A stretch of DNA of 64,000 nt from positions 3,126-67,125 of the IMG/VR virus record IMGVR_UViG_2913584337_000003; one strand, written 5' to 3'. Shown here one piece after another: positions 4,545-59,465 of this stretch; position 1 is the first letter of the stretch, and every line of letters begins with the position of its first letter. The notes under the pieces are model-generated. The model was not told the origin of the DNA, searched no databases, and was given only the letters and a program-made list of their open reading frames with translations. Both the position numbers and the translations under genes were made by a program. This DNA comes from a virus (Duplodnaviria > Caudoviricetes).

Positions 4545-4935
4545 GCCGGAGTACACCTTCACGGACCTTGTACACATCGCGGGCTACGGGTCACGCATAT
4601 TTAAAATCGAATCATACCGCGTCGAGCAATGTTTCTCGCCCAGCGAAGAATGGACGGATATTGTGTACGACTTAATCGATACGGAAACGGGGGCTTACGT
4701 TGAGTGTGACGAAGAGGATCTGCGGCTGGCTGGCGGTAGCAGCGTGCGCAAACCCATGGCAAGGGAATTAAGCGGGCAGGCGAGAAAGGATCGTGCGAAG
4801 CGAGTGGATGCGTTGTTGGACGAAATGAATGATGCGAAAGTGATGGTCGAGATGTTTCCGGAGGATGGCGAATTCAAGGCGAAGGTTGAGTATTTGACGA
4901 TTAAGTTGGCTGAGGTTACGGCGGAGTGGACTTAA
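4537..4935 (+). CDS. hypothetical protein (SH3-like N-terminus)
   Basis: 132 aa, YTFTDLVHIAGY ... VDALLDEMND. Confidence 0.65.
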   Translation: MNKPEYTFTDLVHIAGYGSRIFKIESYRVEQCFSPSEEWTDIVYDLIDTETGAYVECDEEDLRLAGGSSVRKPMARELSGQARKDRAKRVDALLDEMNDAKVMVEMFPEDGEFKAKVEYLTIKLAEVTAEWT

Positions 4936-4943
4936 ATTGCGAA
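4920..4943 (+). repeat. putative cassette recombination site A1
   Basis: GGCGGAGTG-GACTTA-AATTGCGAA at a GC-to-AT boundary; right arm matches consensus, left arm degenerate. Confidence 0.5.
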
Positions 4944-4960
4944 GTAAATGAGGTGAGAAA

Positions 4961-5119
4961 ATGCGGATATTTAAAGTTATCAACGAAAATAATTTTTATC
5001 ATGGTAAAGAAGGCATCTTGGTTAGAGAGAATGCTCATGACTTGATTTTAACAATACATGTAGGTGATTGGAATTCAGATTTGCCTTTTGATAAATCAGA
5101 AGTTGAAGAAATTATATAG
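4961..5119 (+). CDS. small AT-rich hypothetical protein (52 aa), cassette gene
   Basis: RBS GAGGTG; MRIFKVINENNFYHGKEGILVRENAHDLILTIHVGDWNSDLPFDKSEVEEII*; not in ORF track. Confidence 0.7.
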   Translation: MRIFKVINENNFYHGKEGILVRENAHDLILTIHVGDWNSDLPFDKSEVEEII

Positions 5120-5120
5120 T

Positions 5121-5144
5121 GTCGCAATTCGAATAAAATACGAC
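5121..5144 (+). repeat. putative cassette recombination site A2
   Basis: GTCGCAATT-CGAATA-AAATACGAC, 7/9 inverted arms, 1 nt after a stop codon. Confidence 0.7.
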
Positions 5145-5190
5145 TTTGACAAAAATGCGTAATAAACAAAGTTCTTGGGAGGGTGTAATA

Positions 5191-5736
5191 ATGGATAAAA
5201 AGTATAAACAAATTGAGTTTTTTGCAGGAAACACTGTAGAACAGGCTGTTAGTGAATTGTTGAGTTATAGAGAGAAAGGGAAATTAGCTTGTGGTGAATT
5301 TAATGGAGTTACATTGTATTCAGATACGGTAACGATGGATTCAGCATATCAAAGGATAACTGGTAAAACGAAAGCAGAATTTGATAAAGAACAACAAGAA
5401 TGGAGAGAAGACTATAAAAGAAAAGAACAGGAACATAAAGAAAGAATCCCGGAGTTATCAAAGGTTTGGAAGGGAAAAGGTAGAGAGATTCTAGCAGAGG
5501 ACAAGTGGAATCTTTGGGATGATATTGTCCCGATTCGGTTGGGTGACTTATATCGCGGTATGGAATTAGGAAATTGCTTGGATATAGTAAAGATTTTAAA
5601 TAACAACGGCACACTTGATGAAGCGAAAGAGGTAATCGAGAATCAAGGTCACTCAGGGATGTCATTCGGATTGGTTTGTGCGATGATCAAAGAATTTTGT
5701 GATAGAGGTAATGAATTCGTTAATTATGTTAAATAA
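5191..5736 (+). CDS. AT-rich hypothetical protein, cassette gene
   Basis: RBS GGAGGG supports ATG 5191; C-terminal GHSGMSF motif. Confidence 0.75.
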   Translation: MDKKYKQIEFFAGNTVEQAVSELLSYREKGKLACGEFNGVTLYSDTVTMDSAYQRITGKTKAEFDKEQQEWREDYKRKEQEHKERIPELSKVWKGKGREILAEDKWNLWDDIVPIRLGDLYRGMELGNCLDIVKILNNNGTLDEAKEVIENQGHSGMSFGLVCAMIKEFCDRGNEFVNYVK

Positions 5737-5740
5737 CTAC

Positions 5741-5765
5741 TGAACAATTCGATTCAAACAGCGCA
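5741..5765 (+). repeat. putative cassette recombination site A3
   Basis: TGAACAATT-CGATTC-AAACAGCGCA (one extra nt), 4 nt after a stop codon. Confidence 0.6.
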
Positions 5766-5830
5766 ATAATCGAAAATAACAGTTGTAAGCTGCCAGCGAA
5801 GAATTATATATTACGAAAGGAGCTGACGCA

Positions 5831-7201
5831 ATGGAATACGGAAATCTTCTATTAAGTAAGGTAATCGACGAAAATAACGTACAGGCGTTAACCAAATATG
5901 GAATCACGGCGAAGGACTTACCGACGGAGGGTGATAGGCAGACCCTCCGTTTCATCACCGACTATGCGGAGGCTAACCGCGGGCAGGCGCCATCGTACGC
6001 CGTAGTTACTGAGGAGTGTCCGACATTTATTTATACACCGCAAGTCGGAGACAGTTACGAGTACATGACGAAGGTAATAAAGGAATATAGCGCGAAGTTG
6101 CAGTTTATGGAGATAATAAATCCGCCAACAAACGCTAAAGGTGGCGATACTCGCTCACTATTCGAAAAGAAATTCGAGGAGCTTGACGGAAATAAATTCA
6201 CCGACTGGTTGATTTCGGAGGCCGAAAGGATTAAAATAAATACGAACACCAGTTCTAAAGTAGGTACGGACATAAAGGCGGACGCATCTTCTTTTCTGGA
6301 CGAATACCGCAAACGTAAATCAGGCGAGTCGTTCAAGGTTTGGCACAGCAAGTTTCCGGCCATTAACGAAGCAACCGGTGGATACCTCAGCGGAAATATG
6401 TATACATGGTACGGTCGTCCAGGCCGCGGTAAATCAATTATCACCTCAGAGGAAGCGATTGAGTCGGCGTTTCAAGGCGCAAATGTGCTCGGATGGATAA
6501 TGGAAATGGCTAAATTCGAATGGATGGCGCGAGCCTACTCGACTATTTCGGCAAGGTCCGGTATTGTTTCCGCTACTATAGACGGAGTAGATTACGAGGC
6601 AGGCTTCGAGAATAAGGCATTATTAATGGGAAGACTATCGGAGGATTTCGAGGCAGGCTTCGAGCAATTCCTAGCGACTATTAACGAAATAGTGCCGGGC
6701 AATATTACTATCCGAGCAGCAGACGACGTAGACTTTTATAGTCGCGGATTGAAGCAATTAGAGGCGGACATCATTCAGACGAAAGCGGACGTAGTTTTAG
6801 TTGATCCGATTTACCTTATGGATTACGAAGCGAATACTTCGAAAGTTGCTGGAGGTGATGTGGCGAACACGTCGAAAAAGATTCGTAGACTAGCCGGATT
6901 AACGAAAACAGTTATTCACATCGTTACACAGGCGGAAGAGGTTCGCGACGATACAGACGAAGAAGGTAATCGCGAGTTAAGACCGCCGAAACGTGCGGAA
7001 ATCAAGAAAACGAAGGCAGTCCTTGAAGATGCTGCGAACACTTTCGGCATAGATACGCTGGACGGCGTCGGCATAATTGAAATTGGCAAAGGCAGGAATG
7101 GCGGAGAAGGTATGCAGGTTGAAGTTCTGTATCTACCTAACATCGGAATCGTTCGCGAAATGGAGACCGGCATGGCCGCTGCGGCTCAATTCGATTTCTA
7201 G
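5831..7201 (+). CDS. DnaB-like replicative helicase
   Basis: Walker A GRPGRGKS, MEM motif, VLVDPIYLM, KGRNGGEG. Confidence 0.9.
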   Translation: MEYGNLLLSKVIDENNVQALTKYGITAKDLPTEGDRQTLRFITDYAEANRGQAPSYAVVTEECPTFIYTPQVGDSYEYMTKVIKEYSAKLQFMEIINPPTNAKGGDTRSLFEKKFEELDGNKFTDWLISEAERIKINTNTSSKVGTDIKADASSFLDEYRKRKSGESFKVWHSKFPAINEATGGYLSGNMYTWYGRPGRGKSIITSEEAIESAFQGANVLGWIMEMAKFEWMARAYSTISARSGIVSATIDGVDYEAGFENKALLMGRLSEDFEAGFEQFLATINEIVPGNITIRAADDVDFYSRGLKQLEADIIQTKADVVLVDPIYLMDYEANTSKVAGGDVANTSKKIRRLAGLTKTVIHIVTQAEEVRDDTDEEGNRELRPPKRAEIKKTKAVLEDAANTFGIDTLDGVGIIEIGKGRNGGEGMQVEVLYLPNIGIVREMETGMAAAAQFDF

Positions 7202-7300
7202 TCAAGTCAATTTATTTCGACAATTTTGTTAAGTAGTACCTTTGGCATTGGTAAGCGAAAACACGGAAATCTATAGTTAAAACGGAGGAGGTTAAATCCG

Positions 7301-8293
7301 ATGGCAGTTGTCAGAATTCACGGACAATCGATAGACGTGGACATCGAAAGCGAGCTACGGGAATTTCAGTGGGAGCGTGCGCGATGGTCGGCCGATAAAT
7401 TAATTTCCGCAAGTCCTTTTCGCTACGATAAATCTCCTTCGTTCTTCGTCACGCTAGACGGTGAATATGCCGGTTGCTGGGGAGATTCCGGAGCATATGA
7501 CGCTGAATGGGCGTCTGGCAACTTCGCCAAGCTGCTCGCCTTTCTGCGAAATGAATCGTATGAGGAGGCGGAAGAGTACCTGATCGAAATGTACGGCGTA
7601 CCCTCGGAGCCTGGCGCCCGGCTAACGTTAAAGCTCCCGAAATTGCAGTTAATTCAGCGTAATAGGCAAACGTTGAAAGAAGACGCACTCTCGCCATATT
7701 CGCCGGAACCTAACGAGTATTTAAGGCGGCGCGGTATTTCAGACGAGGTACAGCGGGCGGCTGGCGTCCACTTTAGCGAAACCGCTCGAGCAATCGTATT
7801 GCCGTGGAGAACGGTGTCGGGAAAACTAGCGAATGTAAAATACCGGAAAACGTACGGCAAGACGTTCTGGTATGCGAAAGGAGCCGAGCCGATTCGGAAT
7901 ATGGTCTACGGGATCGAACGTGCGGCAACGCGGACGGTTCTGTGCGAGGCTGAAATCGATGCGCTGTCGTGGCGGACGGCAGGCTTTGCGGCTATTGCGG
8001 TGGGTGGCGTGGCGTTCAACCGGACCAAGCGAGATTTGATAATCCGAAGTCCCATCGAAGAGTTGATTATTGCGACGGACAACGATAAGGCCGGCGAAAA
8101 GTTGCGGCAGGAAGTCGAAAAGGAAATGCGCGGATATGTACGGACTAGGCAGGCGTATATACAGGACGAGTGCAAGGACGCAAATGAGGCGTTGGTGAAG
8201 TACGGAGTTGAATCGTTGAGGGGAGCGGTGGAAAAGTCTGAAAGACGCAGTAGTTTGTACGTGAATTTACGTACTCGTAGCCTGGGTAAGTGA
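7301..8293 (+). CDS. DNA primase (TOPRIM)
   Basis: YLRRRGI, LCEAEIDALS, IIATDNDKAG, CKDANE. Confidence 0.9.
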   Translation: MAVVRIHGQSIDVDIESELREFQWERARWSADKLISASPFRYDKSPSFFVTLDGEYAGCWGDSGAYDAEWASGNFAKLLAFLRNESYEEAEEYLIEMYGVPSEPGARLTLKLPKLQLIQRNRQTLKEDALSPYSPEPNEYLRRRGISDEVQRAAGVHFSETARAIVLPWRTVSGKLANVKYRKTYGKTFWYAKGAEPIRNMVYGIERAATRTVLCEAEIDALSWRTAGFAAIAVGGVAFNRTKRDLIIRSPIEELIIATDNDKAGEKLRQEVEKEMRGYVRTRQAYIQDECKDANEALVKYGVESLRGAVEKSERRSSLYVNLRTRSLGK

Positions 8294-8313
8294 CGCATTT
8301 CTTACCCGTTCGG

Positions 8314-8541
8314 TTAACGGTCTGCTTCGAGCCATTCGTATAAGTCATCGATTCGACAGTTAAATTCGTCGGCGATGACTTTTGCTGTGGAGACAAGCAT
8401 GATATTACGTAAATTTTCGTAGTCGGAAATCGTTGACTTCGACATGCCGACGCGATCAGCGAGTTGTTGCTGCGTCAGACCGCGCGATTCACGTAATTCT
8501 CGAAGCAAACACCGTTCGACTACAGCAGACGTGGTGCTCAC
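8314..8541 (-). CDS. XRE-family HTH regulator
   Basis: LRELRESRGLTQQQLADRVGMSKSTISDYEN; start uncertain (possibly ACG at 8532). Confidence 0.85.
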   Translation of the reverse strand: MSTTSAVVERCLLRELRESRGLTQQQLADRVGMSKSTISDYENLRNIMLVSTAKVIADEFNCRIDDLYEWLEADR

Positions 8542-8567
8542 CTCATTACGTTATATAATTTTACGTG

Positions 8568-8771
8568 TTACTTTTCGTCAGGGACAATGCGGACAACTTT
8601 ATCAATGGGGACGTTTAAAAATAAGCAAATCTTTTCGACTGTGCTTAGATTAACGTCTTCGTTGCGGTTAATCTTCGCGATGGTTTTCGGGTGGAGGATT
8701 TCGTCCCGCATGTCGCTGATTACCATATCTTTTTCTTCTAATGTTTTTCGTAGTGGGGAAAAATCAATCAT
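8568..8771 (-). CDS. Cro/C1-type HTH regulator
   Basis: MIDFSPLRKTL ... TIAKINRNEDVNLSTVEKICLFLNVPI. Confidence 0.85.
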   Translation of the reverse strand: MIDFSPLRKTLEEKDMVISDMRDEILHPKTIAKINRNEDVNLSTVEKICLFLNVPIDKVVRIVPDEK

Positions 8772-8794
8772 TATTTACACTTCCTTACATATTT

Positions 8795-8826
8795 ATGTGC
8801 ACTTTGGTGAACATTTATGGTACAAT
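8795..8826 (+). promoter_or_regulatory. aimR promoter (extended -10) with overlapping palindromic operator
   Basis: TGgTACAAT at 8818-8826; ATGTGCAC-TTTG-GTGAACAT 7/8 palindrome at 8795-8814. Confidence 0.5.
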
Positions 8827-8884
8827 CCTATTATAACAGAAAAACGGAAAAAAATTACACTGTTTTTTGAAAGGGGCAAAATCA

Positions 8885-10099
8885 GTGCATAGCGTACTTA
8901 CCAAGGTTTTAGATATGATTGAAAGCCGAGATGACTTGAACTTTAACACAGTCGCTGGAATGATTGGATGTACTAAACAAGAACTTTCGAACATGAGGAC
9001 GAATGGGTGTAGCTTTAGAAAATTACTCAGACTATCTTATGTACTAACTCCCGAAAATCAAAAAGAGGTAATGTACGACTGGTGTATGAAATTAAACACT
9101 ACTGAGGCAATCAAACAAGGGTTTGAATACGCTTCAATCACACGAAATAAAAAGCTACTTCATGGCTTGCTTGAAACACACAAAGAGGACAGAGGGGAAC
9201 TTAGTAAGTACGTTGCAGTATATACAGTGTTACTCGATTTTTACAATAACAAAATATCGGCAGGAGACATCTTGGATAGGATAGAAAAAGTTGGAAAAAC
9301 AAAAGGAGAGTTATTGATCCTTGTGGAAATTATTAAGTGTTACAACTATTATTTCGCCGGTAAGTATCACTTAATGTTGGAGACAGCAAAAGAGGCAGAG
9401 AAATCAGTATACAAGCTAGGAAGTCGACAGCAATTCATCAAAGAGTGTTACATACACAGGCTTGCAGAGGTTCTAGGTCACGTTAGTCTTTTGTTAAACG
9501 ACAGAGAAACAGCTAGGTATTATGCAAATTTAATAATTAACGCAGATATTTGCGCGAAAACTGTTTCCGGCGCCTATTATATAGTGGGCATGACGTTCTT
9601 GAACGAGGGTTCTATAAAAGCAGTTGAATACCTTCGTACAAGATACGAAATTGCCTGCACAATCGGAGAGCAGGATATAGAGAGCAATGCTCGACGAGAT
9701 CTCGATTTCGCTAAAATTTACCTTAACATCCAACTAGATGCAGATGCTGATCCGTTACTCCGCAAACTACAAGAGCAAAAGGCAAGCGAATTCGAATTAA
9801 ACACGATAAAGGAGGCGACTTACTGCGAGGGAGATGACGATTTACTAATATTAATACGCGCAGCAGCGAAAAAATCGATTACGAAAATGAATGAATGTAG
9901 AAAGAAGTTTTTCAATGACGCTAAATATTTTTTCGCCAGTCTTGCGGCACAGGAGGTAAAGAACCTGGGCGAGCAATCAGCTATGATCGACGAGTTTATC
10001 GAATTTAAAATTAACACAAAAGGGGATGTTTTATTTGAAGAAAATTTTATTGGCAGTTTTACTAGTTATCACGATGGTGGTTGGACCCTTAGCGCTTAA
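8885..10099 (+). CDS. aimR: arbitrium receptor AimR (RRNPP/TPR family)
   Basis: ~400 aa helical protein with N-terminal HTH, WCMKLNTTEAIKQGFEYA segment, C-terminal KYFFASLAAQEVKNLGE; followed by a secreted pro-peptide gene; GTG 8885 with RBS AAGGGG. Confidence 0.85.
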   Translation: MHSVLTKVLDMIESRDDLNFNTVAGMIGCTKQELSNMRTNGCSFRKLLRLSYVLTPENQKEVMYDWCMKLNTTEAIKQGFEYASITRNKKLLHGLLETHKEDRGELSKYVAVYTVLLDFYNNKISAGDILDRIEKVGKTKGELLILVEIIKCYNYYFAGKYHLMLETAKEAEKSVYKLGSRQQFIKECYIHRLAEVLGHVSLLLNDRETARYYANLIINADICAKTVSGAYYIVGMTFLNEGSIKAVEYLRTRYEIACTIGEQDIESNARRDLDFAKIYLNIQLDADADPLLRKLQEQKASEFELNTIKEATYCEGDDDLLILIRAAAKKSITKMNECRKKFFNDAKYFFASLAAQEVKNLGEQSAMIDEFIEFKINTKGDVLFEENFIGSFTSYHDGGWTLSA

Positions 10100-10154
10100 T
10101 GCTGTAGCAGAAGAATCAGGGCCAGTCGCATTGCCGGAAAAAGTTGGCGGCTGA
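10035..10154 (+). CDS. aimP: arbitrium pro-peptide AimP (39 aa)
   Basis: RBS AGGGG, TTG start, MKKILLAVLLVITMVVGPLALNAVAEESGPVALPEKVGG*: Sec signal peptide plus short C-terminal peptide; overlaps the aimR 3' end; not in ORF track. Confidence 0.85.
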   Translation: MKKILLAVLLVITMVVGPLALNAVAEESGPVALPEKVGG

Positions 10155-10176
10155 TTAAGTTAATATGAAGTAGTAG

Positions 10177-10208
10177 GGCAGCCCGATTTAGCGGGTTGTC
10201 TTTTTTTT
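10177..10208 (+). terminator. rho-independent terminator after aimP
   Basis: GGCAGCCCG-ATTTAG-CGGGTTGTC followed by T8. Confidence 0.85.
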
Positions 10209-10212
10209 ATTT

Positions 10213-10291
10213 ATGTTCGCTGTAGTAAACAAAATATCAAAATTAAAAGTTTATTTACTTTGAACATATTCCCAATCGGACGTGCTATATT
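10213..10291 (+). promoter_or_regulatory. candidate AimR operator and activator-dependent promoter
   Basis: AGTAAA-N24-TTTACT inverted repeat (10224-10259) inside TATGTTC...GAACATA; extended -10 TGcTATATT with no well-spaced -35. Confidence 0.5.
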
Positions 10292-10328
10292 TTTATCAAC
10301 GGCAAAGAAAAATAAAATATATAAAAAG

Positions 10329-10359
10329 TGCGCGAAAATAAAAGCGCGCGCCTATTATA
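10329..10359 (+). promoter_or_regulatory. putative phage-specific promoter, copy 1
   Basis: TGCGCGA-N11-CGCGCCTATTATA, repeated at 23659. Confidence 0.55.
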
Positions 10360-10390
10360 TAGTGAAGCCGAAAACAAGGGAGCGATTAAA

Positions 10391-11011
10391 TTGAATAAAG
10401 ACGCACTAAACAGTCTGGTACTTCGCTACAAACGCGAACGCACTGACGAAATATTCAACGAAATTTACCGCGAGGTATCCGCAAGCTGGCGAAACCTCCA
10501 CACAGTCGGAAAGTCGGTAATGTCGGACGAATCTGAAATACTAGCAACATATGAAGACACGCTGCTAAAGTGCATTGAATTGTTTGACGAAAACAAGGGC
10601 GACTTTGAGCACATGTGGAACAGCTTCATTTGGCGAGAACGACGAGCCATCTACCGCAAGAAAAAACGGCTTTACTATTATGAGGTACCAGAAAGTTCTA
10701 GCGATAACGACGACGACGATTTCAGTTCATTTTTCAACAAAGTCCACGCAGAATTTAACACGGAAGAACTTGCGTTAGGAAAGAAAAAAGCCGATCAGCG
10801 GATGCTAATCGACTCTCTCCTGAACGGTGCGGATGAATCAACGACGGCAATCGTTGAAACATTCCTGGCTCACCCGAAACCCACAGCGACGGCAATCGCG
10901 AAGGAGCTCGGAGTTCACCATTCGAAAGTAATACGCGCATTAAATCGCCTGGCCGGCAAATTTAGTACCAAACAGTTCGGAGATTATCACGACTATTTGA
11001 TTGCGCTTTAA
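10391..11011 (+). CDS. phage sigma-factor-like transcription regulator
   Basis: Region-2-like LLKCIELFDENKGDFEHMW and C-terminal HTH TATAIAKELGVHHSKVIRAL; RBS AAGGGAG supports TTG 10391. Confidence 0.7.
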   Translation: MNKDALNSLVLRYKRERTDEIFNEIYREVSASWRNLHTVGKSVMSDESEILATYEDTLLKCIELFDENKGDFEHMWNSFIWRERRAIYRKKKRLYYYEVPESSSDNDDDDFSSFFNKVHAEFNTEELALGKKKADQRMLIDSLLNGADESTTAIVETFLAHPKPTATAIAKELGVHHSKVIRALNRLAGKFSTKQFGDYHDYLIAL

Positions 11012-11063
11012 TAAATTGAGAACGGTTTGGCACATAGGCATCGCGTCAAATCGTCTCACTCTA

Positions 11064-11092
11064 ATTATAACAACGCATACAGCAATTGTCAT
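11064..11092 (-). promoter_or_regulatory. sigmaA-like promoter pointing antisense to the sigma-like gene
   Basis: ATGACA-17-TATAAT with TGn extension on the minus strand. Confidence 0.6.
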
Positions 11093-11182
11093 TAGTAAGA
11101 TAATTACAGTATTGTTTCAACACTTTTAGTATAATACACGTTTTCAAAGCAAAACGCAACCAAAATCGGAGGGATTTACGAG

Positions 11183-11347
11183 ATGAAACGTAAAAATCGC
11201 CTTAATAGATATTATGCCCTACAATCCGAAATTAAAACGTCTTTTGAGCGACAAATTGAGCGTCTGCAACACGATCCGATTCGCCTTTGCGACGGGGCCA
11301 ACGAAAATATCAGCTTTCGTACTATCAAGGCGGTGCGGCTCGGATGA
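11183..11347 (+). CDS. small hypothetical protein (54 aa)
   Basis: RBS GGAGGG; MKRKNRLNRYYALQSEIK...KAVRLG*. Confidence 0.55.
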   Translation: MKRKNRLNRYYALQSEIKTSFERQIERLQHDPIRLCDGANENISFRTIKAVRLG

Positions 11348-11372
11348 CGACGAAAGCGGTAGGTGAAGCGGA

Positions 11373-11483
11373 ATGAGCGCTCAGGTCGTTAGCCTCAGCG
11401 AAGTGAAGAGGCGGAAGGTAATCGCTCAGTATCGGAAGTTTTACGGAACTGCCAACGAAGTCACACGCAAGGCGACGAAATGA
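11373..11483 (+). CDS. small basic hypothetical protein (36 aa)
   Basis: RBS AGGTGA; MSAQVVSLSEVKRRKVIAQYRKFYGTANEVTRKATK*. Confidence 0.45.
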   Translation: MSAQVVSLSEVKRRKVIAQYRKFYGTANEVTRKATK

Positions 11484-11504
11484 ATCTTTGACATAAGTTG
11501 TGCA
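11481..11504 (+). repeat. putative cassette recombination site B1
   Basis: TGAATCTTT-GACATA-AGTTGTGCA, closely resembles site C1; followed by RBS AAGGAGG. Confidence 0.55.
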
Positions 11505-11523
11505 GTAAGGAGGTAAGCAGGGA

Positions 11524-11703
11524 TTGAATGAATTAGAGAGGTACAAATTAGTTAAATTTTGCGTAATGGCTACATCGGTTATTCGCCGTATTGATATTGA
11601 CAATGTTGATGAGAAAAGATTTTTAAATATGTCGAGTGAAGAACTAACAAAAGAATCTGACAGGCTAGAATATTTATTGAAAAATGATGCACAGTTCGAG
11701 TAA
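11524..11703 (+). CDS. small AT-rich hypothetical protein (59 aa), cassette gene
   Basis: RBS AAGGAGG, TTG start, MNELERYKLVKFCVMATS...LLKNDAQFE*. Confidence 0.65.
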   Translation: MNELERYKLVKFCVMATSVIRRIDIDNVDEKRFLNMSSEELTKESDRLEYLLKNDAQFE

Positions 11704-11711
11704 ATGGCGAC
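11688..11711 (+). repeat. putative cassette recombination site B2
   Basis: TGCACAGTT-CGAGTA-AATGGCGAC overlapping the stop codon. Confidence 0.65.
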
Positions 11712-12200: not shown

Positions 12201-12212
12201 GGGGACGATTTA

Positions 12213-13007: not shown

Positions 13008-13018
13008 GAGGCGGTTAA

Positions 13019-13751: not shown

Positions 13752-13752
13752 T

Positions 13753-14744: not shown

Positions 14745-14763
14745 ATTAATCGGAGGGATTGCG

Positions 14764-14982: not shown

Positions 14983-14996
14983 AAAGGCGGTGCAAT

Positions 14997-18195: not shown

Positions 18196-18207
18196 GGAGG
18201 AATCGGA

Positions 18208-23784: not shown

Positions 23785-24501
23785 ATGGGGTATTTCGGAA
23801 TCAGCTCACGTAATTCAGCGCAAAAGGCGGCAATGACCGCGCTCAGCAACGATAAGCCATTTACGTTTTTAACCGGGCCGGCGGGCAGCGGCAAAACGCT
23901 CATCGCGCAGGCAGTCGGCCTGGAACACGTCATTGAGAAACGCAGCAAGCGAAAGCTCATATACACGCGACTTCAAACGCAGGTCGGCATGGATGTCGGC
24001 GCACTGCCCGGCGACCTAAACGAAAAGACGTTCCCGTTCATCGCGCCATTTATGGACAATCTCGAAGTGATGACCGATAAGCCTGGCGAAATCAAGAAGT
24101 ATTTTTCGGAGGGTGACGAAGATAAGCGCAAGATATTCTTCGACTCAATCCAGACGATCCGCGGGCGCTCGCTCAATCATACGTTTTTCCTTGGCGATGA
24201 ATTCCAAAACCTCGACGTCCACACGATGGCAGCAATCGCAACCCGCCCAGGCTTGAACGCCAAATTCGTATTCATGGGCAACTTTTCGCAGATTGATAGT
24301 CCGCGATTGAGGAGCACGAAGACGAACGGGCTATACCAGTTGCTCAACGGATTATACGAACAAGGGGCTACGGAATACTTTGATCACGTTAACTTAACGG
24401 AAACGCAAAGGCATCCGGTGGTTGACGTAGTGGAGTCGATTTTACGTAATCACGAGATGGCGCCGGAGTTTGAGGCGTTGGAAGCGCGAGGCAATCAGTA
24501 G
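23785..24501 (+). CDS. phoH: PhoH-family ATPase
   Basis: GPAGSGKT, LPGDL, RGRSL, DEFQN, QID. Confidence 0.9.
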   Translation: MGYFGISSRNSAQKAAMTALSNDKPFTFLTGPAGSGKTLIAQAVGLEHVIEKRSKRKLIYTRLQTQVGMDVGALPGDLNEKTFPFIAPFMDNLEVMTDKPGEIKKYFSEGDEDKRKIFFDSIQTIRGRSLNHTFFLGDEFQNLDVHTMAAIATRPGLNAKFVFMGNFSQIDSPRLRSTKTNGLYQLLNGLYEQGATEYFDHVNLTETQRHPVVDVVESILRNHEMAPEFEALEARGNQ

Positions 24502-24512
24502 AAAAATACGAA
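24488..24512 (+). repeat. putative cassette recombination site E1
   Basis: GAGGCAATC-AGTAGAA-AAATACGAA (7-nt spacer) overlapping the phoH stop, followed by RBS. Confidence 0.5.
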
Positions 24513-24524: not shown

Positions 24525-24683
24525 TTGAAAAAATGGTTTTGGACGACTTTGCTGATAACACTAATCCCTTTGTGGGTTGTGCTGTATTTGATTGGCATGA
24601 TGGGCATGGCATCCTCTTATCTTTGGGAAAATGTTTACCATTCGGTGTACAGACGAGCAGGAAGTCCCCTTGATAAAAAATAG
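24525..24683 (+). CDS. small membrane protein (52 aa), cassette gene
   Basis: RBS AAGGAG, TTG, MKKWFWTTLLITLIPLWVVLYLIGMMGMASSYLWENV...; not in ORF track. Confidence 0.7.
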   Translation: MKKWFWTTLLITLIPLWVVLYLIGMMGMASSYLWENVYHSVYRRAGSPLDKK

Positions 24684-24690: not shown

Positions 24691-24714
24691 GACGCACTTC
24701 GATCCAACCGCGCA
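24691..24714 (+). repeat. putative cassette recombination site E2
   Basis: GACGCACTT-CGATCC-AACCGCGCA just after the stop codon. Confidence 0.65.
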
Positions 24715-32430: not shown

Positions 32431-32454
32431 TGAATAACTGACAAAAAATCTGCA
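32431..32454 (+). repeat. putative cassette recombination site C1
   Basis: TGAATAACT-GACAAA-AAATCTGCA at a GC-to-AT boundary, directly after a TTCG hairpin. Confidence 0.55.
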
Positions 32455-32473: not shown

Positions 32474-32686
32474 ATGAATAAAAATCAAATTGAAGCAATG
32501 AAAGAATCATTAAAAATTCAAGGTTATAGTGGCAATTGGAATTATGACGAGTACATGTTCGGAATATATAACGGTATGGAATTGATGGTAGCAATTGCAG
32601 AAAACAGAGAACCTGTCTACAAAGAAAAACCTAAGAGATGGCTGAAAGATAGAAAAGTTGATTCCAAACCAATCAGTATGTCTTAG
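32474..32686 (+). CDS. AT-rich hypothetical protein, cassette gene
   Basis: 70 aa, RBS AAGGAG, GNWNYDEYMFGIYNGMEL. Confidence 0.75.
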   Translation: MNKNQIEAMKESLKIQGYSGNWNYDEYMFGIYNGMELMVAIAENREPVYKEKPKRWLKDRKVDSKPISMS

Positions 32687-32703
32687 TCCGATTCTAAAGC
32701 GCA
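32680..32703 (+). repeat. putative cassette recombination site C2
   Basis: GTCTTAGTC-CGATTC-TAAAGCGCA overlapping the stop; same spacer as A3. Confidence 0.55.
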
Positions 32704-32722
32704 ATAAAAGGAGGAACAAACA

Positions 32723-32872
32723 ATGAAGTGTGAACATCATTACGAAGTTTGTTGTTATAATTCTTCAATTGTAATTGCAGAATGCACCAAATGCGGTGAC
32801 GAAAAGGAATACGACTTTGATGATTATTTTTTGAATTATGGATTCCCTACTCTTTCAGATGAAATAGAATAG
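32723..32872 (+). CDS. small Cys/His-rich protein (49 aa), cassette gene
   Basis: RBS AAGGAGG; MKCEHHYEVCCYNSSIVIAECTKCGDEKE...; not in ORF track. Confidence 0.7.
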   Translation: MKCEHHYEVCCYNSSIVIAECTKCGDEKEYDFDDYFLNYGFPTLSDEIE

Positions 32873-32873
32873 T

Positions 32874-32897
32874 ACACCAGTTAGAACAAATTACGAA
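32874..32897 (+). repeat. putative cassette recombination site C3
   Basis: ACACCAGTT-AGAACA-AATTACGAA, 1 nt after the stop. Confidence 0.7.
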
Positions 32898-32914
32898 GGA
32901 AAGGGCGGTTTGAA

Positions 32915-33040
32915 ATGCATGATACTCTTTATTTTCAGGTGAAAAGATTAAAAAGACACTTAAATATTGTATTAGGTAGGATGGGAATTTTTAAAATCGC
33001 AGAATGGACTATTAGAAAGCTATCAAGAATTATTAAGTAA
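32915..33040 (+). CDS. small basic amphipathic protein (41 aa), cassette gene
   Basis: MHDTLYFQVKRLKRHLNIVLGRMGIFKIAEWTIRKLSRIIK*; not in ORF track. Confidence 0.6.
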   Translation: MHDTLYFQVKRLKRHLNIVLGRMGIFKIAEWTIRKLSRIIK

Positions 33041-33064
33041 TACACACTTATGTGGAAATGTGCA
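33041..33064 (+). repeat. putative cassette recombination site C4
   Basis: TACACACTT-ATGTGG-AAATGTGCA, 7/9 inverted arms, abuts the stop. Confidence 0.65.
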
Positions 33065-33109
33065 ATTGCAAACGTTGGAAAAGTCATATTCAAGAAAGGA
33101 GAATTAAAA

Positions 33110-33394
33110 ATGACAGTACACGGTTTTATGGAAGATTGGGATGGAGAAATTGTACTAAGTGATATTCATAACTTTAAAGATGAAAATGACTTCTCTGAAC
33201 AAGCTGAAAAATATGTTAAGGAAACAAGAGGATATAGAGTGCCATTATTTCCTCCTGTTGTTATGGATATTGTGTACAACGGTGAAAACGAAGAATGTTG
33301 GTCAAGCAAAAATTATGCCCTAAAAACAGGCTTTGAAGGAGAAATAATTACGGTTTATAGGTCGACTTTAGATTATGACAATGCAGAAGGGTAA
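33110..33394 (+). CDS. AT-rich acidic hypothetical protein, cassette gene
   Basis: RBS AAGGAG supports ATG 33110. Confidence 0.7.
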   Translation: MTVHGFMEDWDGEIVLSDIHNFKDENDFSEQAEKYVKETRGYRVPLFPPVVMDIVYNGENEECWSSKNYALKTGFEGEIITVYRSTLDYDNAEG

Positions 33395-33418
33395 TTCGCA
33401 CTTCGAACAAATTACGAA
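33395..33418 (+). repeat. putative cassette recombination site C5
   Basis: TTCGCACTT-CGAACA-AATTACGAA, 7/9 inverted arms, abuts the stop; last 14 nt identical to C3. Confidence 0.75.
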
Positions 33419-33426: not shown

Positions 33427-33447
33427 GCTCGCTTCGGCGGGCTTTTT
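33427..33447 (+). terminator. rho-independent terminator
   Basis: GCTCGC-TTCG-GCGGGC-TTTTT. Confidence 0.75.
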
Positions 33448-52931: not shown

Positions 52932-52933
52932 AT

Positions 52934-53374
52934 ATGGCGTTTATTCCCGAAAATTACTCAGATGCTTTAGACGAAGCAATCCTGGCGGAAGAGGAAGCGG
53001 AGATAGTCGTTGAGCCGTCGAAAACGTGGGCGATTGATTTCGAAAATGGCACCATCGGAAAGTTTATAGATGGGGGAGAATCTTTGCGGCAGTTCATCCG
53101 GAAGGCTATTTTAACGGAGCGGTCAAGGTTCGCCATTTATTCGGACGACTACGGATGTGAATTAAACGAGCTAATCGGCGACGACGAAATTACAGAGGAG
53201 TTGCTCGACGCAGAGGTTCCTCGGATAGTTAGCGAGGCACTTGTTTATGACGACCGAATTGACGATGTGCAGACGACGTTTACACGGGATGGCGACAAGT
53301 TGTTCATTACCGTTACGGTGATTCCCGCGGATAACGACGTTGTAATAACGGAGGAGGTGGAAGTAAATGTATGA
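52934..53374 (+). CDS. XkdS/DUF2634-like baseplate wedge protein
   Basis: TERSRFAIYSDDYGCE, EALVYDDRI. Confidence 0.85.
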   Translation: MAFIPENYSDALDEAILAEEEAEIVVEPSKTWAIDFENGTIGKFIDGGESLRQFIRKAILTERSRFAIYSDDYGCELNELIGDDEITEELLDAEVPRIVSEALVYDDRIDDVQTTFTRDGDKLFITVTVIPADNDVVITEEVEVNV

Positions 53375-56000: not shown

Positions 56001-56269
56001 TGGGAGAAATAATCTTAGCAGGCGATCGTATCACGGTTGATAAACTCGTTAAAAAGGCTAACAGTTTGACAGGCTACTTAAACGGAATCGAAAGGGTAAG
56101 TTTGAAAGGGATCGACTGGGATACGTTCAAAGTAACGTGGACTGGCGTAGAGCCTACGGAGGAAGCCGAGGTATCTATCGAATTTCTTCAGCAAGAGAAC
56201 GGGGAATTGAAGGCGCGACTCGATGTCGTTGAAGATGCGCTAATCACCCTTATGGATAGCGCTAAGTAA
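56000..56269 (+). CDS. tail fibre accessory/chaperone (putative)
   Basis: 89 aa with C-terminal coiled coil, coupled to the fibre gene. Confidence 0.55.
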   Translation: MGEIILAGDRITVDKLVKKANSLTGYLNGIERVSLKGIDWDTFKVTWTGVEPTEEAEVSIEFLQQENGELKARLDVVEDALITLMDSAK

Positions 56270-56340
56270 CGAAAAGCAGAAGGTATAGAGAAGGCGTTCC
56301 TTATTGAACCGGAATAGGGCGCAAAAAGGGAGCGGATTAT

Positions 56341-58311
56341 ATGAGTAGCGAAAAGACACCGAATTTAGGATTGCACAAATGGAAGTCGACGGATTACGTG
56401 CAGATGGTCGAGTTTAACGAGAATTTCGTGAAGCTTGACGAGAAGTCTGCGGAGGTTACCGAGAATTTCGCGAAGTTTGACGAGAAGACAGCAGAGTTCA
56501 ACGAGCAGTTAGCAGAAACAACGACAGGGCTTTCATTCATTCCAGCGCAGAATGTGGTTTTAAGTACGACAGCAGCGGGTGACCCTCGTTTTCTTGACAA
56601 TATCGGGGATGGATACCTCTATGGAAGTAACTCGCGTTCGTTATACCGAGCTACCTCCGAAAACGGTCCATGGACGTTAGTTAAAGCTTTTACTGTAAAT
56701 GACGCTATAAACGGCATACGTATGTTAGGCGACGGAGAAGTCTTGCTGATACGTTCGACAGATGGGTTATGGAAATCTACAGGGTGGGCAACTAATCCAC
56801 TTACAGCTACGTGGACGCAGGTGCTAGTCACTAACGGAAGAACAACTCAGTTTAGTATAGACGTTGATAAAGCTTCTGGATGGGTTTCAGCTACAACATA
56901 TATAAATGGAGATATGACAAACTCGCGATATGTTTGGTTATCGAGAAATAACGGAGTTACATTTACGCAGATATTTGACATGCTGGACTTTGAGCCAACT
57001 ATAGACAAATCGCACGCTCACATGCATCTTGCGGTATTAGATCCGTATTGGAATGCTGTCACACCGCGGATATGGATTAGTTATCACAAAACTGCGGATG
57101 ACCCGACAAATACTGCTGATCCTTTAAAACGAATTAAATACTCTGATGATGGGGGTCAAACGTGGGTTAGCTTTTCAAATTCGGGGTATCAGCCAGTGGT
57201 AGGAATAGCGACACCTGAAGGTATGCTCTTTGGTTCTGATGAAGATACCGTCGGAGTTTATGTTGTGAGGCGAACAGCAAACCCTGCAGATATGAAGTAC
57301 GAGCTTTTTTATGCAATTAGAGAAAATATAGACGGTATTTTCGGATGGGCAACTAAGGCGATCAAGGGTGCAAATGGAGCTTATCATATTGCTTTTAGAT
57401 CAAGTGTTGCGGGCTATCCTGGTCGTGTTATTACAAGTGATGGAAAGCGAATTGTGGAGACTTTAAAAATAACTCCTGCAACGCCAAATGATTCCGTAGA
57501 CCTTGTTGATATTGTTGAGTATAAAGGAAGGATTTTGGCAAACTATTACAATACATTTACTGGAGCAGGGACAGCCTACAAAATGATAGCAGATGTACCT
57601 GTTCGTGGAGTGCCTACATTTACGTCAGTAGGAGCATTAGAGGGTGGCATTGCGGGGCCATTAGCTACTTCAGCAGGTATAAAATCTAAAGCTGATATGC
57701 GCGGTACTGCAATAGGCTCCAATAGTTATGCTGCATTACGAGGGACAGTTTTGGGCGAACAGTCGAGTGCCGGTGCAGAAGGGGTGGCGATTGGATCAGT
57801 TGCAATAGTCACAGGAAATGGGACTTCAATAGGAAAATCAGCAACTGCCGAAACCGGTGTGTCAATAGGGCGAAATAGTAGTTCAGCCAGCGATGGTACT
57901 TCTGTGGGACCGTCAGCGAAATCGATAGCGGAATCAGTTGCGCTAGGGTCTTTTGCAGATGCGTCAGCCTCTCAAACAACAGCCATCGGTCGGTTAGCGG
58001 CAGCGAACAATGCTAATGCCGTTGCAATTGGGGCACTGGCTAATGCAAACGCCCCAGGTTCTGTTGCTATTGGGAGAAATGCTAAATCGTCGCATGACTT
58101 TTCTGTAGCGCTTGGGTATGGGGTTCAAACAACAGCGCCCAATCAGTTCAAAATCGGAAATAAACATATTGAACTAGACGTAATATCAAACCCATCAACG
58201 TTCCCTGTAAACGGACTAAGGTTCTTCGCAAGAAAAAATACTTCAGGAAAAGTAGAGTTGTGTGTACTGTTCCCGTCAGGATCTCCGGCAGTCGTTGCAA
58301 CAGAACCTTAA
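56341..58311 (+). CDS. tail fibre / receptor-binding protein 2 (BNR propeller plus YadA-head-like repeats)
   Basis: N-terminal KTPNLGLHKW anchor, Asp-box SRNNGVTF/YSDDGGQTW, repeated xAIGxxAxA. Confidence 0.8.
   Translation: MSSEKTPNLGLHKWKSTDYVQMVEFNENFVKLDEKSAEVTENFAKFDEKTAEFNEQLAETTTGLSFIPAQNVVLSTTAAGDPRFLDNIGDGYLYGSNSRSLYRATSENGPWTLVKAFTVNDAINGIRMLGDGEVLLIRSTDGLWKSTGWATNPLTATWTQVLVTNGRTTQFSIDVDKASGWVSATTYINGDMTNSRYVWLSRNNGVTFTQIFDMLDFEPTIDKSHAHMHLAVLDPYWNAVTPRIWISYHKTADDPTNTADPLKRIKYSDDGGQTWVSFSNSGYQPVVGIATPEGMLFGSDEDTVGVYVVRRTANPADMKYELFYAIRENIDGIFGWATKAIKGANGAYHIAFRSSVAGYPGRVITSDGKRIVETLKITPATPNDSVDLVDIVEYKGRILANYYNTFTGAGTAYKMIADVPVRGVPTFTSVGALEGGIAGPLATSAGIKSKADMRGTAIGSNSYAALRGTVLGEQSSAGAEGVAIGSVAIVTGNGTSIGKSATAETGVSIGRNSSSASDGTSVGPSAKSIAESVALGSFADASASQTTAIGRLAAANNANAVAIGALANANAPGSVAIGRNAKSSHDFSVALGYGVQTTAPNQFKIGNKHIELDVISNPSTFPVNGLRFFARKNTSGKVELCVLFPSGSPAVVATEP
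56502..56525 (+). repeat. putative cassette recombination site D1 (in frame inside the fibre gene)
   Basis: CGAGCAGTT-AGCAGA-AACAACGAC encoding EQLAETT at the anchor/variable-domain junction. Confidence 0.6.
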
Positions 58312-58398
58312 TTCAAAAATTTTGAGTTACTTGTAGAATTTTCAAGTCTATTGTTTTAAGATTAATATATCCTTAACACTAGATTGTGAGGTTTTGCA

Positions 58399-59448
58399 TT
58401 GAGCAACCTAGGAAGATTGAATGAATTAGACGCGCTGAGAGGGTTAGCTGCGCTTGCGGTAGTTTTATATCACTATACAACAAGATATGAGGCCCTTTTT
58501 GGACATGCAAAGACCTCATATTTTGGCTTTAATTATGGTAATTTAGGTGTAAATCTGTTTTTCATGATCAGTGGGTTTGTTATTTTCATGACAATTACCA
58601 GGACGAATAATGTAACTGATTTTGCTAAGAAAAGGATTATAAGATTATATCCATCATATATCGTAGCGGTTATAATCACTTTTGTTGCAGTAAAGCTTTA
58701 TGATTTAGGCGGTAGAGGAGTAACTTTGTTTGATGGTGTTTTTAATCTGACAATGCTTCAAGGGTTTTTACCTGGCGTCATAGACCACGTTGATGGTGCT
58801 TACTGGAGCTTAAAAGTGGAGCTGACCTTCTATATTATTATTGGAGTTATTCTGTTTTTTGGTTTAAAGCAACGAGTGTATTTACTTTCGATATTGTGGT
58901 TAATTAGCACATCGATATTTCAAGTTTTAGATGCGCTTACTGGAGGCTATATAATTACTAAAGCGTTAGTTTTTTACTCTATTGCTGATTATGCTCACTT
59001 GTTTATCGCAGGGATAATGTTTTATTTATTAAAAACTAAAAATCAACTAAAATATCATTTGTTAATTGGTCTTTGTTTAATCTATGAATTCGCGCTCAAT
59101 GACTTGAAAGCAAGTTTATTTGTAACAATGTTTTTCGGTGTTTTCTATCTCTTGATAAATAGCAAGTTGTCACTACTTAATAATAAAGTCCTAACGTTTT
59201 TAGGAGCTATTTCATATAGTTTATATCTGATTCACCAAAACATTGGTTATATCATTATCAATTTCTTAGAGAAAAACGGTATGGTTCAAGAATTTTATTT
59301 GATAATACCTGTAAGTGTATCTATCATCTTAGCAACATTAATTACTTACTATATAGAAAAACCAGCAATAAGGATATTCAAGAATCGAATGCAAAAAAGG
59401 AAAACACTGAAGCTGAAAAAGGATGGGTTATCTGCTAAATCATCATAG
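58399..59448 (+). CDS. acyltransferase family 3 (OafA/YrhL-like) membrane protein
   Basis: LDALRGLA, GVNLFFMISGF, RIIRLYP, WSLKVE, SYSLYLIH; very AT-rich. Confidence 0.9.
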   Translation: MSNLGRLNELDALRGLAALAVVLYHYTTRYEALFGHAKTSYFGFNYGNLGVNLFFMISGFVIFMTITRTNNVTDFAKKRIIRLYPSYIVAVIITFVAVKLYDLGGRGVTLFDGVFNLTMLQGFLPGVIDHVDGAYWSLKVELTFYIIIGVILFFGLKQRVYLLSILWLISTSIFQVLDALTGGYIITKALVFYSIADYAHLFIAGIMFYLLKTKNQLKYHLLIGLCLIYEFALNDLKASLFVTMFFGVFYLLINSKLSLLNNKVLTFLGAISYSLYLIHQNIGYIIINFLEKNGMVQEFYLIIPVSVSIILATLITYYIEKPAIRIFKNRMQKRKTLKLKKDGLSAKSS

Positions 59449-59465
59449 TTGGAATAAACTACGCA
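59442..59465 (+). repeat. putative cassette recombination site D2
   Basis: ATCATAGTT-GGAATA-AACTACGCA overlapping the acyltransferase stop, at the AT-to-GC boundary. Confidence 0.65.

What the first reader, a model, noticed from the sequence alone, without database searches (positions are those of the whole stretch)
4920..59465. Family of 14 co-oriented 9-6-9 sites bracketing accessory genes: candidate integron-like cassette system in a phage
Seen: 14 degenerate sites (left arm-spacer-right arm): 4920 GGCGGAGTG-GACTTA-AATTGCGAA; 5121 GTCGCAATT-CGAATA-AAATACGAC; 5741 TGAACAATT-CGATTC-AAACAGCGCA; 11481 TGAATCTTT-GACATA-AGTTGTGCA; 11688 TGCACAGTT-CGAGTA-AATGGCGAC; 24488 GAGGCAATC-AGTAGAA-AAATACGAA; 24691 GACGCACTT-CGATCC-AACCGCGCA; 32431 TGAATAACT-GACAAA-AAATCTGCA; 32680 GTCTTAGTC-CGATTC-TAAAGCGCA; 32874 ACACCAGTT-AGAACA-AATTACGAA; 33041 TACACACTT-ATGTGG-AAATGTGCA; 33395 TTCGCACTT-CGAACA-AATTACGAA; 56502 CGAGCAGTT-AGCAGA-AACAACGAC; 59442 ATCATAGTT-GGAATA-AACTACGCA. 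Twelve overlap or sit within 7 nt of a stop codon, and most are followed closely by an RBS. They delimit AT-rich ORFs inside a more GC-rich backbone. In three loci the first site has spacer GACWWA; in four the last has CGANNN. Known: imperfect inverted arms around a 6-8 bp spacer is the architecture of tyrosine-recombinase core sites (dif, loxP), and promoterless single-gene units are the hallmark of integron cassettes. Inference: these are recombination sites through which genes are captured, stacked and swapped. I do not recognise the site as attC or dif, and the recombinase is not established.
Basis: partly seen in the sequence, partly recalled or inferred. Interest (0 to 1): 0.92.

Follow-up and report, generated by a model that had tools for sequence, protein, structure and literature searches.

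The report
Gene-junction motif bounding phage accessory genes
A short conserved DNA motif sits just after the stop codons of imported, AT-rich accessory genes in a temperate phage of a Bacillus-like host and its relatives, marking where such genes are swapped, but it does not behave like an integron recombination site.

Summary
The motif family is real, but smaller and more lopsided than described. Seven of the 14 sites (5121, 11688, 24691, 32680, 32874, 33395, 59442) fit one strand-specific 24-nt motif, nnCRCAnTTCGAAyAAAttRCGAa. Five (4920, 5741, 11481, 24488, 32431) are half-sites or variants. Site 33041 is doubtful and 56502 is part of a coding repeat.

Three other AT-rich ORF runs lack it. 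Related phages carry different AT-rich ORFs at the same hotspots, ending in the same motif. A second, unrelated prophage in the same genome has five copies and shares one 96%-identical cassette whose left breakpoint lies at the motif.

Evidence against an integron-like system:
- no hairpin and no covariation between the arms
- variable spacers
- no recombinase shared by the motif-bearing phages
- empty alleles keep no site

Best reading: a cassette-end junction element, probably a protein-recognition site. It serves as a seam, and perhaps an insulator, for modular gene exchange. It works like the PeSL linkers of T4-type phages but is built differently. Earlier notes of this scan describe analogous junction motifs in other phages. 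The binding factor and the reaction are unknown.

The parts
33395..33418 (+). Strongest 3-prime-type junction motif. It starts right after the stop of the last ORF of the four-ORF island.
   Evidence: Rank 1 with the external PWM at 30.5 bits. An orthologous motif-plus-terminator block is 89% identical over 56 nt in G002.
33427..33442 (+). Intrinsic terminator hairpin followed by a T-run, 8 nt after the motif.
   Evidence: Conserved in G002 and G003.
5121..5144 (+). Strong 3-prime-type motif, 1 nt after the stop of the 52-aa ORF.
   Evidence: Rank 2 at 27.2 bits; position.
11688..11711 (+). Strong 3-prime-type motif. The stop codon of the 59-aa ORF lies inside it.
   Evidence: Rank 3 at 24.5 bits.
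24691..24714 (+). Strong 3-prime-type motif, 7 nt after the stop of a 52-aa membrane-like ORF and 5 nt before an SD sequence.
   Evidence: Rank 4 at 23.4 bits.
59442..59465 (+). Strong 3-prime-type motif overlapping the stop of the acyltransferase gene.
   Evidence: Rank 5 at 22.9 bits. G001 has a motif at the same pre-holin position, after a different 396-aa ORF of GC 0.27.
59490..59514 (+). Intrinsic terminator, 24 nt after motif 59442 and upstream of the holin gene.
   Evidence: A counterpart is present in G001.
32874..32897 (+). 3-prime-type motif with A in place of the conserved C at position 10. It is the left edge of the cassette shared with contig C7.
   Evidence: 22.8 bits with the window-trained PWM; rank 17-18 with the external PWM; alignment.
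32680..32703 (+). Moderate 3-prime-type motif overlapping the stop of the 70-aa ORF.
   Evidence: 13-15 bits; rank 7-8 without ever being a training site.
5741..5765 (+). Variant motif with a right half one nt longer. It closes the pre-helicase island.
   Evidence: Low on the 24-nt PWM (rank about 40). 9 of 70 relatives have a hit of at least 14 bits at this orthologous pre-helicase position. Rank 4 with the 5-prime-type PWM.
4920..4943 (+). 5-prime-type junction half-site: the backbone gene's stop lies in the 'spacer', followed by the right arm and an RBS.
   Evidence: Rank 1 with the PWM from six relatives' orthologous junctions. The string ACTTAAATTGCG is shared with L068.
11481..11504 (+). 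5-prime-type junction, moderately supported.
   Evidence: Rank 7 with the 5-prime-type PWM. It begins with the TGA of a 36-codon ORF.
24488..24512 (+). Right-arm-only half-site: the PhoH stop, then AAAAATACGAA and an SD sequence.
   Evidence: Read directly. Not supported by either PWM.
32431..32454 (+). Weak 5-prime-type junction in front of the four-ORF island.
   Evidence: Rank 16 with the 5-prime PWM and rank about 215 with the 3-prime PWM. No gene stop lies nearby.
33041..33064 (+). Doubtful site. Both arms fit the consensus but the conserved CGA of the spacer is missing.
   Evidence: Rank about 125. It lies inside the segment shared with C7, not at its edge.
4961..5736 (+). Island A: 52-aa and 181-aa AT-rich ORFs (GC 0.30 and 0.36) between a backbone gene and the DnaB-like helicase.
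   Evidence: No homologue in 5 full relatives or in 70 helicase loci.
11524..11703 (+). Island B: 59-aa ORF, GC 0.31.
24525..24683 (+). Island C: 52-aa ORF, GC 0.41.
32474..33394 (+). Island D: four ORFs of 70, 49, 41 and 94 aa (GC 0.27-0.34), each with an SD sequence.
58399..59448 (+). Island E: Acyl_transf_3 O-acetyltransferase (GC 0.32), built like a moron with promoter-like hexamers at 58312-58339.

Best explanation
The motif is a cassette-end junction element. It is a roughly 24-nt, strand-specific, unstructured sequence, nnCRCAnTTCGAAyAAAttRCGAa. It travels with imported AT-rich accessory genes and sits 0-7 nt after, or over, their stop codon. A related half-motif, GAYnTAAAttGCGAc(a)TAA, precedes the RBS of the first gene of an island.

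Invariant and free positions alternate with an 11-nt period (CA, TTCGA, AA, CG). That pattern points to recognition by a protein, not to plain homology or a hairpin.

Most likely mode of action (inferred): the copies provide short portable homology between otherwise unrelated phages. Accessory genes are gained, lost and exchanged at these seams by homologous or short-homology recombination, not by a dedicated integrase. At the same time the element may insulate backbone genes (helicase, late genes, holin) from the inserted gene, because it is often paired with a terminator.

Shown: the motif's reality, its position, its strand bias, its presence at variable hotspots in relatives, and one recent transfer ending at it.

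Inferred: the recombination role, the binding protein, and the insulation.
For: Non-random and strand-specific:
- The pattern occurs 6 (+) and 0 (-) times in the window, against 6 in the other 4.17 Mb.
- 7 hits exceed 14 bits, against 0.39 expected.
- In 768 kb of relatives' loci there are 15 + and 5 - hits above 14 bits.

Stop-linked and AT-linked:
- Across the window, five relatives and the C7 prophage, a motif of at least 12 bits sits at the stop of 15 of 58 AT-rich ORFs, against 4 of 546 other ORFs. The odds ratio is 47 and Fisher p is 2.6e-13. The genomes are kin and the PWM was partly trained on these sites.
- Of the 30 sites of at least 16 bits, most follow an ORF of 39 aa or more with GC 0.27-0.42 in loci of GC 0.39-0.52.

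Variable hotspots:
- 9 of 70 helicase loci have the motif within 110 nt upstream of the helicase, behind unrelated AT-rich ORFs.
- G002 and G003 have it, with the same terminator, at the end of different islands at locus D.
- G001 has it before the holin, after a different ORF.

It travels with cassettes:
- The unrelated C7 prophage has five copies, all after small AT-rich ORFs.
- Of 22 relatives of that prophage type, only its 100% twin L106 has strong copies; L111 has weak ones.

Recent exchange:
- A 210-nt segment carrying a 41-aa ORF is 96% identical between C1 and C7. It occurs in no other of 269 genomes of the family.
- 3 of its 8 mismatches fall in the first 19 nt, which is the motif part. 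That places the left breakpoint at the motif's right edge.
- In the L016/L026 comparison, homology begins inside the motif. In the G002/window comparison, homology is confined to the motif plus terminator.

Not a hairpin.
Against: - Only one recent transfer is documented. Its right breakpoint lies 50 nt after the stop, 26 nt beyond the doubtful site 33041, not at a strong motif.
- Motif-bearing cassettes are almost all ORFans. Among 272 AT-rich ORFs, 23 bear a motif, and only one cross-genome family includes a motif-bearing member. Movement of individual cassettes at the motif is therefore barely sampled.
- 43 of 58 AT-rich ORFs lack the motif. Three AT-rich runs in the window have none.
- Empty alleles show that islands sit at a stop|SD junction with no motif in the target. 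Whole islands could also be exchanged through flanking backbone homology, without needing the motif.
- Position-specific conservation implies a binding factor. I could not identify one: no candidate protein is shared by the window, G001-G003 and the C7 prophage.
- No single-strand-annealing recombinase was recognised among the 30 proteins scanned against PHROGs for function.
Confidence: 0.5

Rival explanations
1. Purely regulatory DNA site: an orientation-dependent roadblock or operator, like a stoperator. A phage or host protein binds it to stop transcription from lysogen-expressed accessory genes running into replication, late and lysis genes. On this reading the link to gene exchange is incidental.
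For: - The motif is asymmetric, co-oriented with transcription, and sits at stop codons in short intergenic gaps.
- Invariant positions show an 11-nt periodicity.
- It is paired with terminators in front of the holin and of the late region.
- The motif-plus-terminator block is more conserved than the flanking genes.
- The anatomy matches the description of stoperators quoted in PMC3203893 (passages).
Against: - No copy lies near the candidate immunity genes, the HTH ORFs at 8568-8771(-) and 61302-61526(-) (hit lists).
- The same consensus occurs in an unrelated co-resident prophage and in relatives with 53-79% identical helicases, with no shared regulator found.
- 12 of the 30 sites of at least 16 bits are followed within 8 nt by the RBS of the next gene of the same operon, where a block would silence needed genes.
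Confidence: 0.22
2. True site-specific recombination sites. Cassettes are cut and joined inside the 6-nt spacer by a tyrosine recombinase: the 174-aa phage enzyme, a host Xer-type enzyme, or an unknown one.
For: - At consensus level the arms are inverted repeats (CRCAnTT / AAnTRCG) around an asymmetric spacer. First-junction sites look like hybrids with only the right arm.
- The cassettes are compact RBS-ORF-site units.
- The 174-aa protein keeps R, K, HxxR, H and Y, by my reading, and matches PF00589 at 1e-18.
- The L007 island is flanked by an exact 11-nt direct repeat that includes the right arm.
Against: - PF00589 is absent from motif-bearing G002 and G003 and present in motif-less G005.
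- Spacers differ between sites: CGAATA, CGAGTA, CGATCC, CGATTC, AGAACA, CGAACA, GGAATA.
- Empty alleles keep no site.
- Not every cassette junction has a site.
- The one dated transfer is not bounded by two sites.
- There is no folding and no covariation, so the site is not attC-like.
Confidence: 0.1
3. An mRNA element read as single-stranded RNA. It could be a translational operator just upstream of the next SD, or a processing or stability signal at the 3-prime end of accessory messages.
For: - The motif is strictly on the sense strand.
- Its right arm ends 0-8 nt before an SD in 12 of the 30 sites of at least 16 bits.
- It lacks secondary structure.
- The closest precedent in anatomy is the SAS/ESAS of cluster K mycobacteriophages (PMC3203893, passages).
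Against: - In at least four sites the motif is followed by a terminator and no gene. In four relatives it is followed by a promoter-like stretch (my reading).
- Nearly all genes are on one strand, so sense-strand bias does not separate RNA from DNA readings.
- No Rfam family matched.
Confidence: 0.08
4. Binding site of the host sporulation regulator Spo0A, as tandem 0A-like boxes. This would tie accessory-gene read-through to the host's sporulation state.
For: - The motif reads as two CGAA-ending boxes in tandem (nTTCGAA yAAA TTRCGAA).
- The host's own abrB leader carries TGTCGAA AAA TGACGAA.
- Spo0A binds tandem, imperfect boxes in Bacillus phages (PMC2731898, passages).
- A host factor would explain the same motif in unrelated phages.
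Against: - The G of TGTCGAA is present in 0 of 29 first boxes and 3 of 29 second boxes (column counts).
- The boxes are 4 nt apart, not 3.
- Sites lie after genes, not at promoters or origins.
Confidence: 0.05
5. Chance resemblance picked out by eye among many intergenic A-rich sequences.
For: Four to five of the 14 sites (24488, 32431, 33041, 56502, and partly 11481) score at chance level on the main PWM. All PWMs descend from sites chosen by eye.
Against: Enrichment over the host genome and over shuffles. Untrained hits lie at stop codons in a second prophage and in relatives from other samples.
Confidence: 0.02

Closest known systems
PeSLs (promoter-early stem-loops), the mobile regulatory cassettes of T4-type phages (Arbiol et al. 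2010, PMC2839356, abstract read; Comeau et al. 2014, PMC4122927, search listing only)
   Same: Short repeated intergenic elements concentrated in variable regions full of small non-essential ORFs. Differences between related phages map to them. Exchange is driven by homology between copies, not by an integrase.
   Different: PeSLs are a sigma-70 promoter plus a terminator stem-loop. This motif has neither. It sits after the stop codon and shows position-specific conservation, as a protein site does. Mini-circles have not been looked for here.
Stoperators of cluster A mycobacteriophages (L5 repressor sites). My own knowledge, plus the one-sentence mention in PMC3203893 seen.
   Same: Asymmetric, one orientation relative to transcription, many copies, in short intergenic gaps at stop and start codons.
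   Different: Stoperators share their sequence with the operator at the early lytic promoter and are specific to one immunity group. Here no copy lies at the candidate switch regions, and the same consensus occurs in an unrelated prophage.
Start-associated sequences and extended SAS of cluster K mycobacteriophages (Pope et al. 2011, PMC3203893, passages)
   Same: A repeated asymmetric motif in the non-structural half of the genome, in one orientation, next to gene boundaries, sometimes overlapped by the upstream stop codon. ESAS are imperfect inverted repeats with a spacer. Their function is unknown.
   Different: SAS contain the SD and always precede a start codon. This motif is tied to the upstream stop and can be followed by a terminator or a promoter.
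Integron attC sites and gene cassettes
   Same: Compact, co-oriented, mostly promoterless ORF-plus-3-prime-site units that differ between relatives.
   Different: No IntI, no attI, no folded imperfect palindrome, and no site left in empty alleles.
SPBRE / MrpR of SPbeta (Kohm et al. 2023, PMC10516654, passages)
   Same: A repeated intergenic element in a temperate Bacillus phage, bound by a protein with a tyrosine-recombinase fold. It shows that 'recombinase-like site' and 'operator' can coincide.
   Different: SPBRE lies in promoter regions of about 10 genes. Here the motif follows stop codons, and the small recombinase-like protein is absent from two motif-bearing relatives.
Conserved boundary ('linker') sequences at module junctions of lambdoid phages (recalled; no paper opened)
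   Same: The idea that short conserved junction sequences guide modular exchange.
   Different: Those are mostly gene-end homologies without a defined repeated consensus.

Membership tests
Integron (IntI / attI / attC) | Adjacent IntI-type tyrosine recombinase | tested here: not met
   The only PF00589 protein is a 174-aa catalytic-domain-only ORF at 36057-36581(-), far from the arrays. The family is absent from motif-bearing G002 and G003.
Integron (IntI / attI / attC) | attC is an imperfect palindrome that folds as a single strand | tested here: not met
   There is no excess of complementary arm pairs over shuffles at any of 9 pairs in 29 sites. The fold z-scores of 7 sites run from -0.36 to +1.11.
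Integron (IntI / attI / attC) | A primary site (attI) remains when no cassette is present | tested here: not met
   L012 has stop-11 nt-ATG. L037-L039 have overlapping stop and start. Neither has a PWM hit above 5 bits.
Integron (IntI / attI / attC) | Co-oriented, compact, promoterless single-ORF cassettes | tested here: inconclusive
   An SD follows most sites and the ORFs are compact. However, island E has its own promoter-like hexamers and terminator, and several junctions in relatives lack a site.
Tyrosine-recombinase core site (dif / loxP type) | Two inverted binding arms around a 6-8 bp overlap that is identical in partner sites | tested here: not met
   The arms are inverted repeats at consensus level only. 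The overlap differs in 7 of 7 strong sites beyond a shared CGA.
Tyrosine-recombinase core site (dif / loxP type) | A cognate recombinase acting on the site | not testable with these tools
   No enzyme co-occurs with the motif. Host Xer enzymes could not be assayed. The host dif sequence was not compared.
PeSL cassettes of T4-type phages | Sigma-70-type early promoter within the element | tested here: not met
   No promoter-like hexamer pair coincides with the motifs, apart from a 9-of-12 match at 5741.
PeSL cassettes of T4-type phages | Stem-loop terminator within the element | tested here: not met
   The motif itself does not fold. Separate terminators follow 33395 and 59442.
PeSL cassettes of T4-type phages | Copies flank non-essential ORFs in variable regions, and differences between relatives map to them | tested here: met
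PeSL cassettes of T4-type phages | Recombination between copies yields mini-circles | not testable with these tools
   Only assembled contigs of two runs were available, and they show no joints.
Stoperators (cluster A mycobacteriophages) | Asymmetric site, one orientation relative to transcription, in short intergenic gaps at stop or start codons | tested here: met
Stoperators (cluster A mycobacteriophages) | Same sequence as the repressor's operator at the early lytic promoter; bound by the phage repressor | tested here: inconclusive
   No hit of at least 12 bits lies near the HTH genes at 8568-8771 or 61302-61526. Binding could not be tested.
Spo0A tandem 0A boxes | Two TGTCGAA-like boxes 3 bp apart | tested here: not met
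   G at box position 2 occurs in 0 of 29 first boxes and 3 of 29 second boxes, and the spacing is 4 bp. The consensus is from PMC2731898.

The most novel reading that the evidence does not exclude
The motif is the recognition site of a still unidentified, possibly host-encoded, protein that actively cuts, joins or templates the exchange of single-gene cassettes among unrelated temperate phages of Bacillaceae-type hosts. That would be a phage gene-cassette system with a linear, unfolded cassette-end site and no integron integrase.
Probability: 0.12. Interest if true: 0.85.

Novelty: new variant of a known kind. Interest (0 to 1): 0.5.

Why it matters
Phage accessory genes, including lysogenic-conversion and probable host-takeover or anti-defence genes, turn over very fast. 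How single genes enter tightly packed operons without breaking them is poorly understood.

A defined 24-nt cassette-end element would give a concrete, testable handle on that process in Gram-positive temperate phages. It is shared by relatives and by an unrelated co-resident prophage, and it is the edge of a recent inter-prophage transfer. It also offers a practical marker for finding accessory-gene islands.

It joins a growing set of junction motifs, such as PeSLs and those noted elsewhere in this scan. Together these suggest that 'built-in seams' are a general feature of phage genomes. If a dedicated protein recognises the site, this would be a new recombination or insulation system.

Tried and rejected
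Searches that led nowhere:
- Megablast of two window stretches against 50,697 phage records found no match. Distant blastn found only small patches.
- An exact scan of IMG/VR for CANTTCGAAYAAATTRCGA gave one hit, in a 64%-GC contig with no second copy. I judged it chance.
- The pattern CANTYCGANNNAANNNCGMA across 269 genomes of the host's family gave 0-4 hits per genome. By eye this resembles the reversed-pattern control of 0-3, though I did not sum the columns. The motif is therefore not a host-chromosome element. The genus holds only 2 species.
- Homologues of cassette ORFs in named phages are distant (40-52% aa) and gave no breakpoints. Their junctions carry a different motif.
- Rfam at gathering score matched nothing at the sites.
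- Pfam found nothing in 8 of the 9 cassette proteins.
- In locus D relatives L100 and L101 (82% identical neighbouring gene), no motif of at least 9 bits was found.

Sequencing runs:
- No RNA holder is listed. The only holders are two sets of Logan contigs that may be the source assembly.
- Laid on 4801-24800, they are identical to the window with no joints.

Tests with negative results:
- A hairpin or attC-like fold is rejected.
- Target-site duplication is not general. Only the L007 island has an exact 11-nt flanking repeat; I compared the other islands by eye.

Not tested, or considered from memory only:
- Resemblances to the B. subtilis dif site, the LexA box, the PurBox, Ter/RTP sites and 16S rRNA helix 45 were considered from memory only. 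Some were dropped and none was tested. The rRNA contig reads N.
- I looked for a phage protein shared by all motif-bearing genomes and found none.
- Structure prediction, complex prediction, the protein-database searches and the metagenome and genome-contig scans were not used.
- Paper searches listed no description of this motif. They cover only the held open-access library, and supplements were not opened.

Full report
Setting

The window is the reverse strand of contig C1 (67,207 bp, GC 46.7%) of a 4.24-Mb, 79-contig genome with GC 43%. Nearly all genes run on the + strand.

Its gene content is that of a temperate siphovirus-like phage:
- DnaC-like loader, DnaB-like helicase, primase, DNA polymerase, RuvC-like resolvase, ribonucleotide reductase, PhoH, thymidylate synthase, methyltransferases and sigma-like proteins
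- a holin
- a 509-aa ORF just left of the window, conserved at 66-67% in four relatives; I take it to be the integrase, but I did not annotate it

No close relative is in the named phage collection.

Noticed in passing
window 12016-12139 (+): Match to the skipping-rope RNA family (RF02924; 50.9 bits, gathering score 36.7). It lies in the long non-coding stretch between motif 11688 and the gene at 12213.
   Followed up: no
window 32231-32398 (+): Four spaced units of TCAAC(TTTT/AATG) followed about 21 nt later by TTAAGA(G/A), just upstream of the four-ORF island. They are candidate promoters for one of the phage's sigma-like proteins (10391-11011, 30871-31269).
   Followed up: no
window 9545-9585, 10323-10363, 23653-23693 (+): Three copies of TGCGCG...CGCGCC TATTATA(T/A)AGT, a GC-rich inverted pair abutting a -10-like box. 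The contig pieces also fit two places here. Possibly operator-promoter units.
   Followed up: no
window 36057-36581 (-): A 174-aa tyrosine recombinase consisting of the catalytic domain only, with R, K, HxxR, H and Y visible. Orthologues are in G001 (86%) and G005 (48%), and a 40% paralogue is on host contig C22. Its substrate is unknown. It is not linked to the motif.
   Followed up: partly
G000 contig C23, about 8975 (- strand): The host abrB leader carries tandem Spo0A boxes, TGTCGAA AAA TGACGAA. They resemble the phage motif apart from two G-to-T differences and one extra spacer base.
   Followed up: partly
L003 (SPbetaL8), L004 (Tavor_SA), L005 (vB_BcoS-136): Junctions between small genes in these unrelated Bacillus phages carry a different A/T-rich motif (TAAAAT..(T)GATTTTAT type) between stop and SD. 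This matches junction palindromes noted earlier in this scan.
   Followed up: no
window 56410-56514 (+): Four tandem 21-nt (7-codon) repeats near the start of the 656-aa putative fibre gene. This is the source of the false site 56502.
   Followed up: partly
window 53129-53152 (- strand): The single strong antisense PWM hit (19-22 bits), inside the tail-region gene 52934-53374. Probably chance. Its conservation in relatives was not checked.
   Followed up: no
window 21617-23454 and 59890-60616: The phage ribonucleotide-reductase gene has a 69%-identical copy on host contig C17. The 235-aa ORF after the holin has 75-77%-identical copies on C9 and C39.
   Followed up: no
G000 contigs C27:555 and C45:3877: Further motif-like sites directly after TAA stop codons on small contigs (18.7 and 13.2 bits). 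They may mark more prophage remnants carrying such cassettes.
   Followed up: no
contig C1 ends (outside the window): Both ends of C1 overlap other contigs (C57, C11) by exactly 34 nt. These look like assembly-graph links, so whether the phage is integrated or extrachromosomal is not settled.
   Followed up: no
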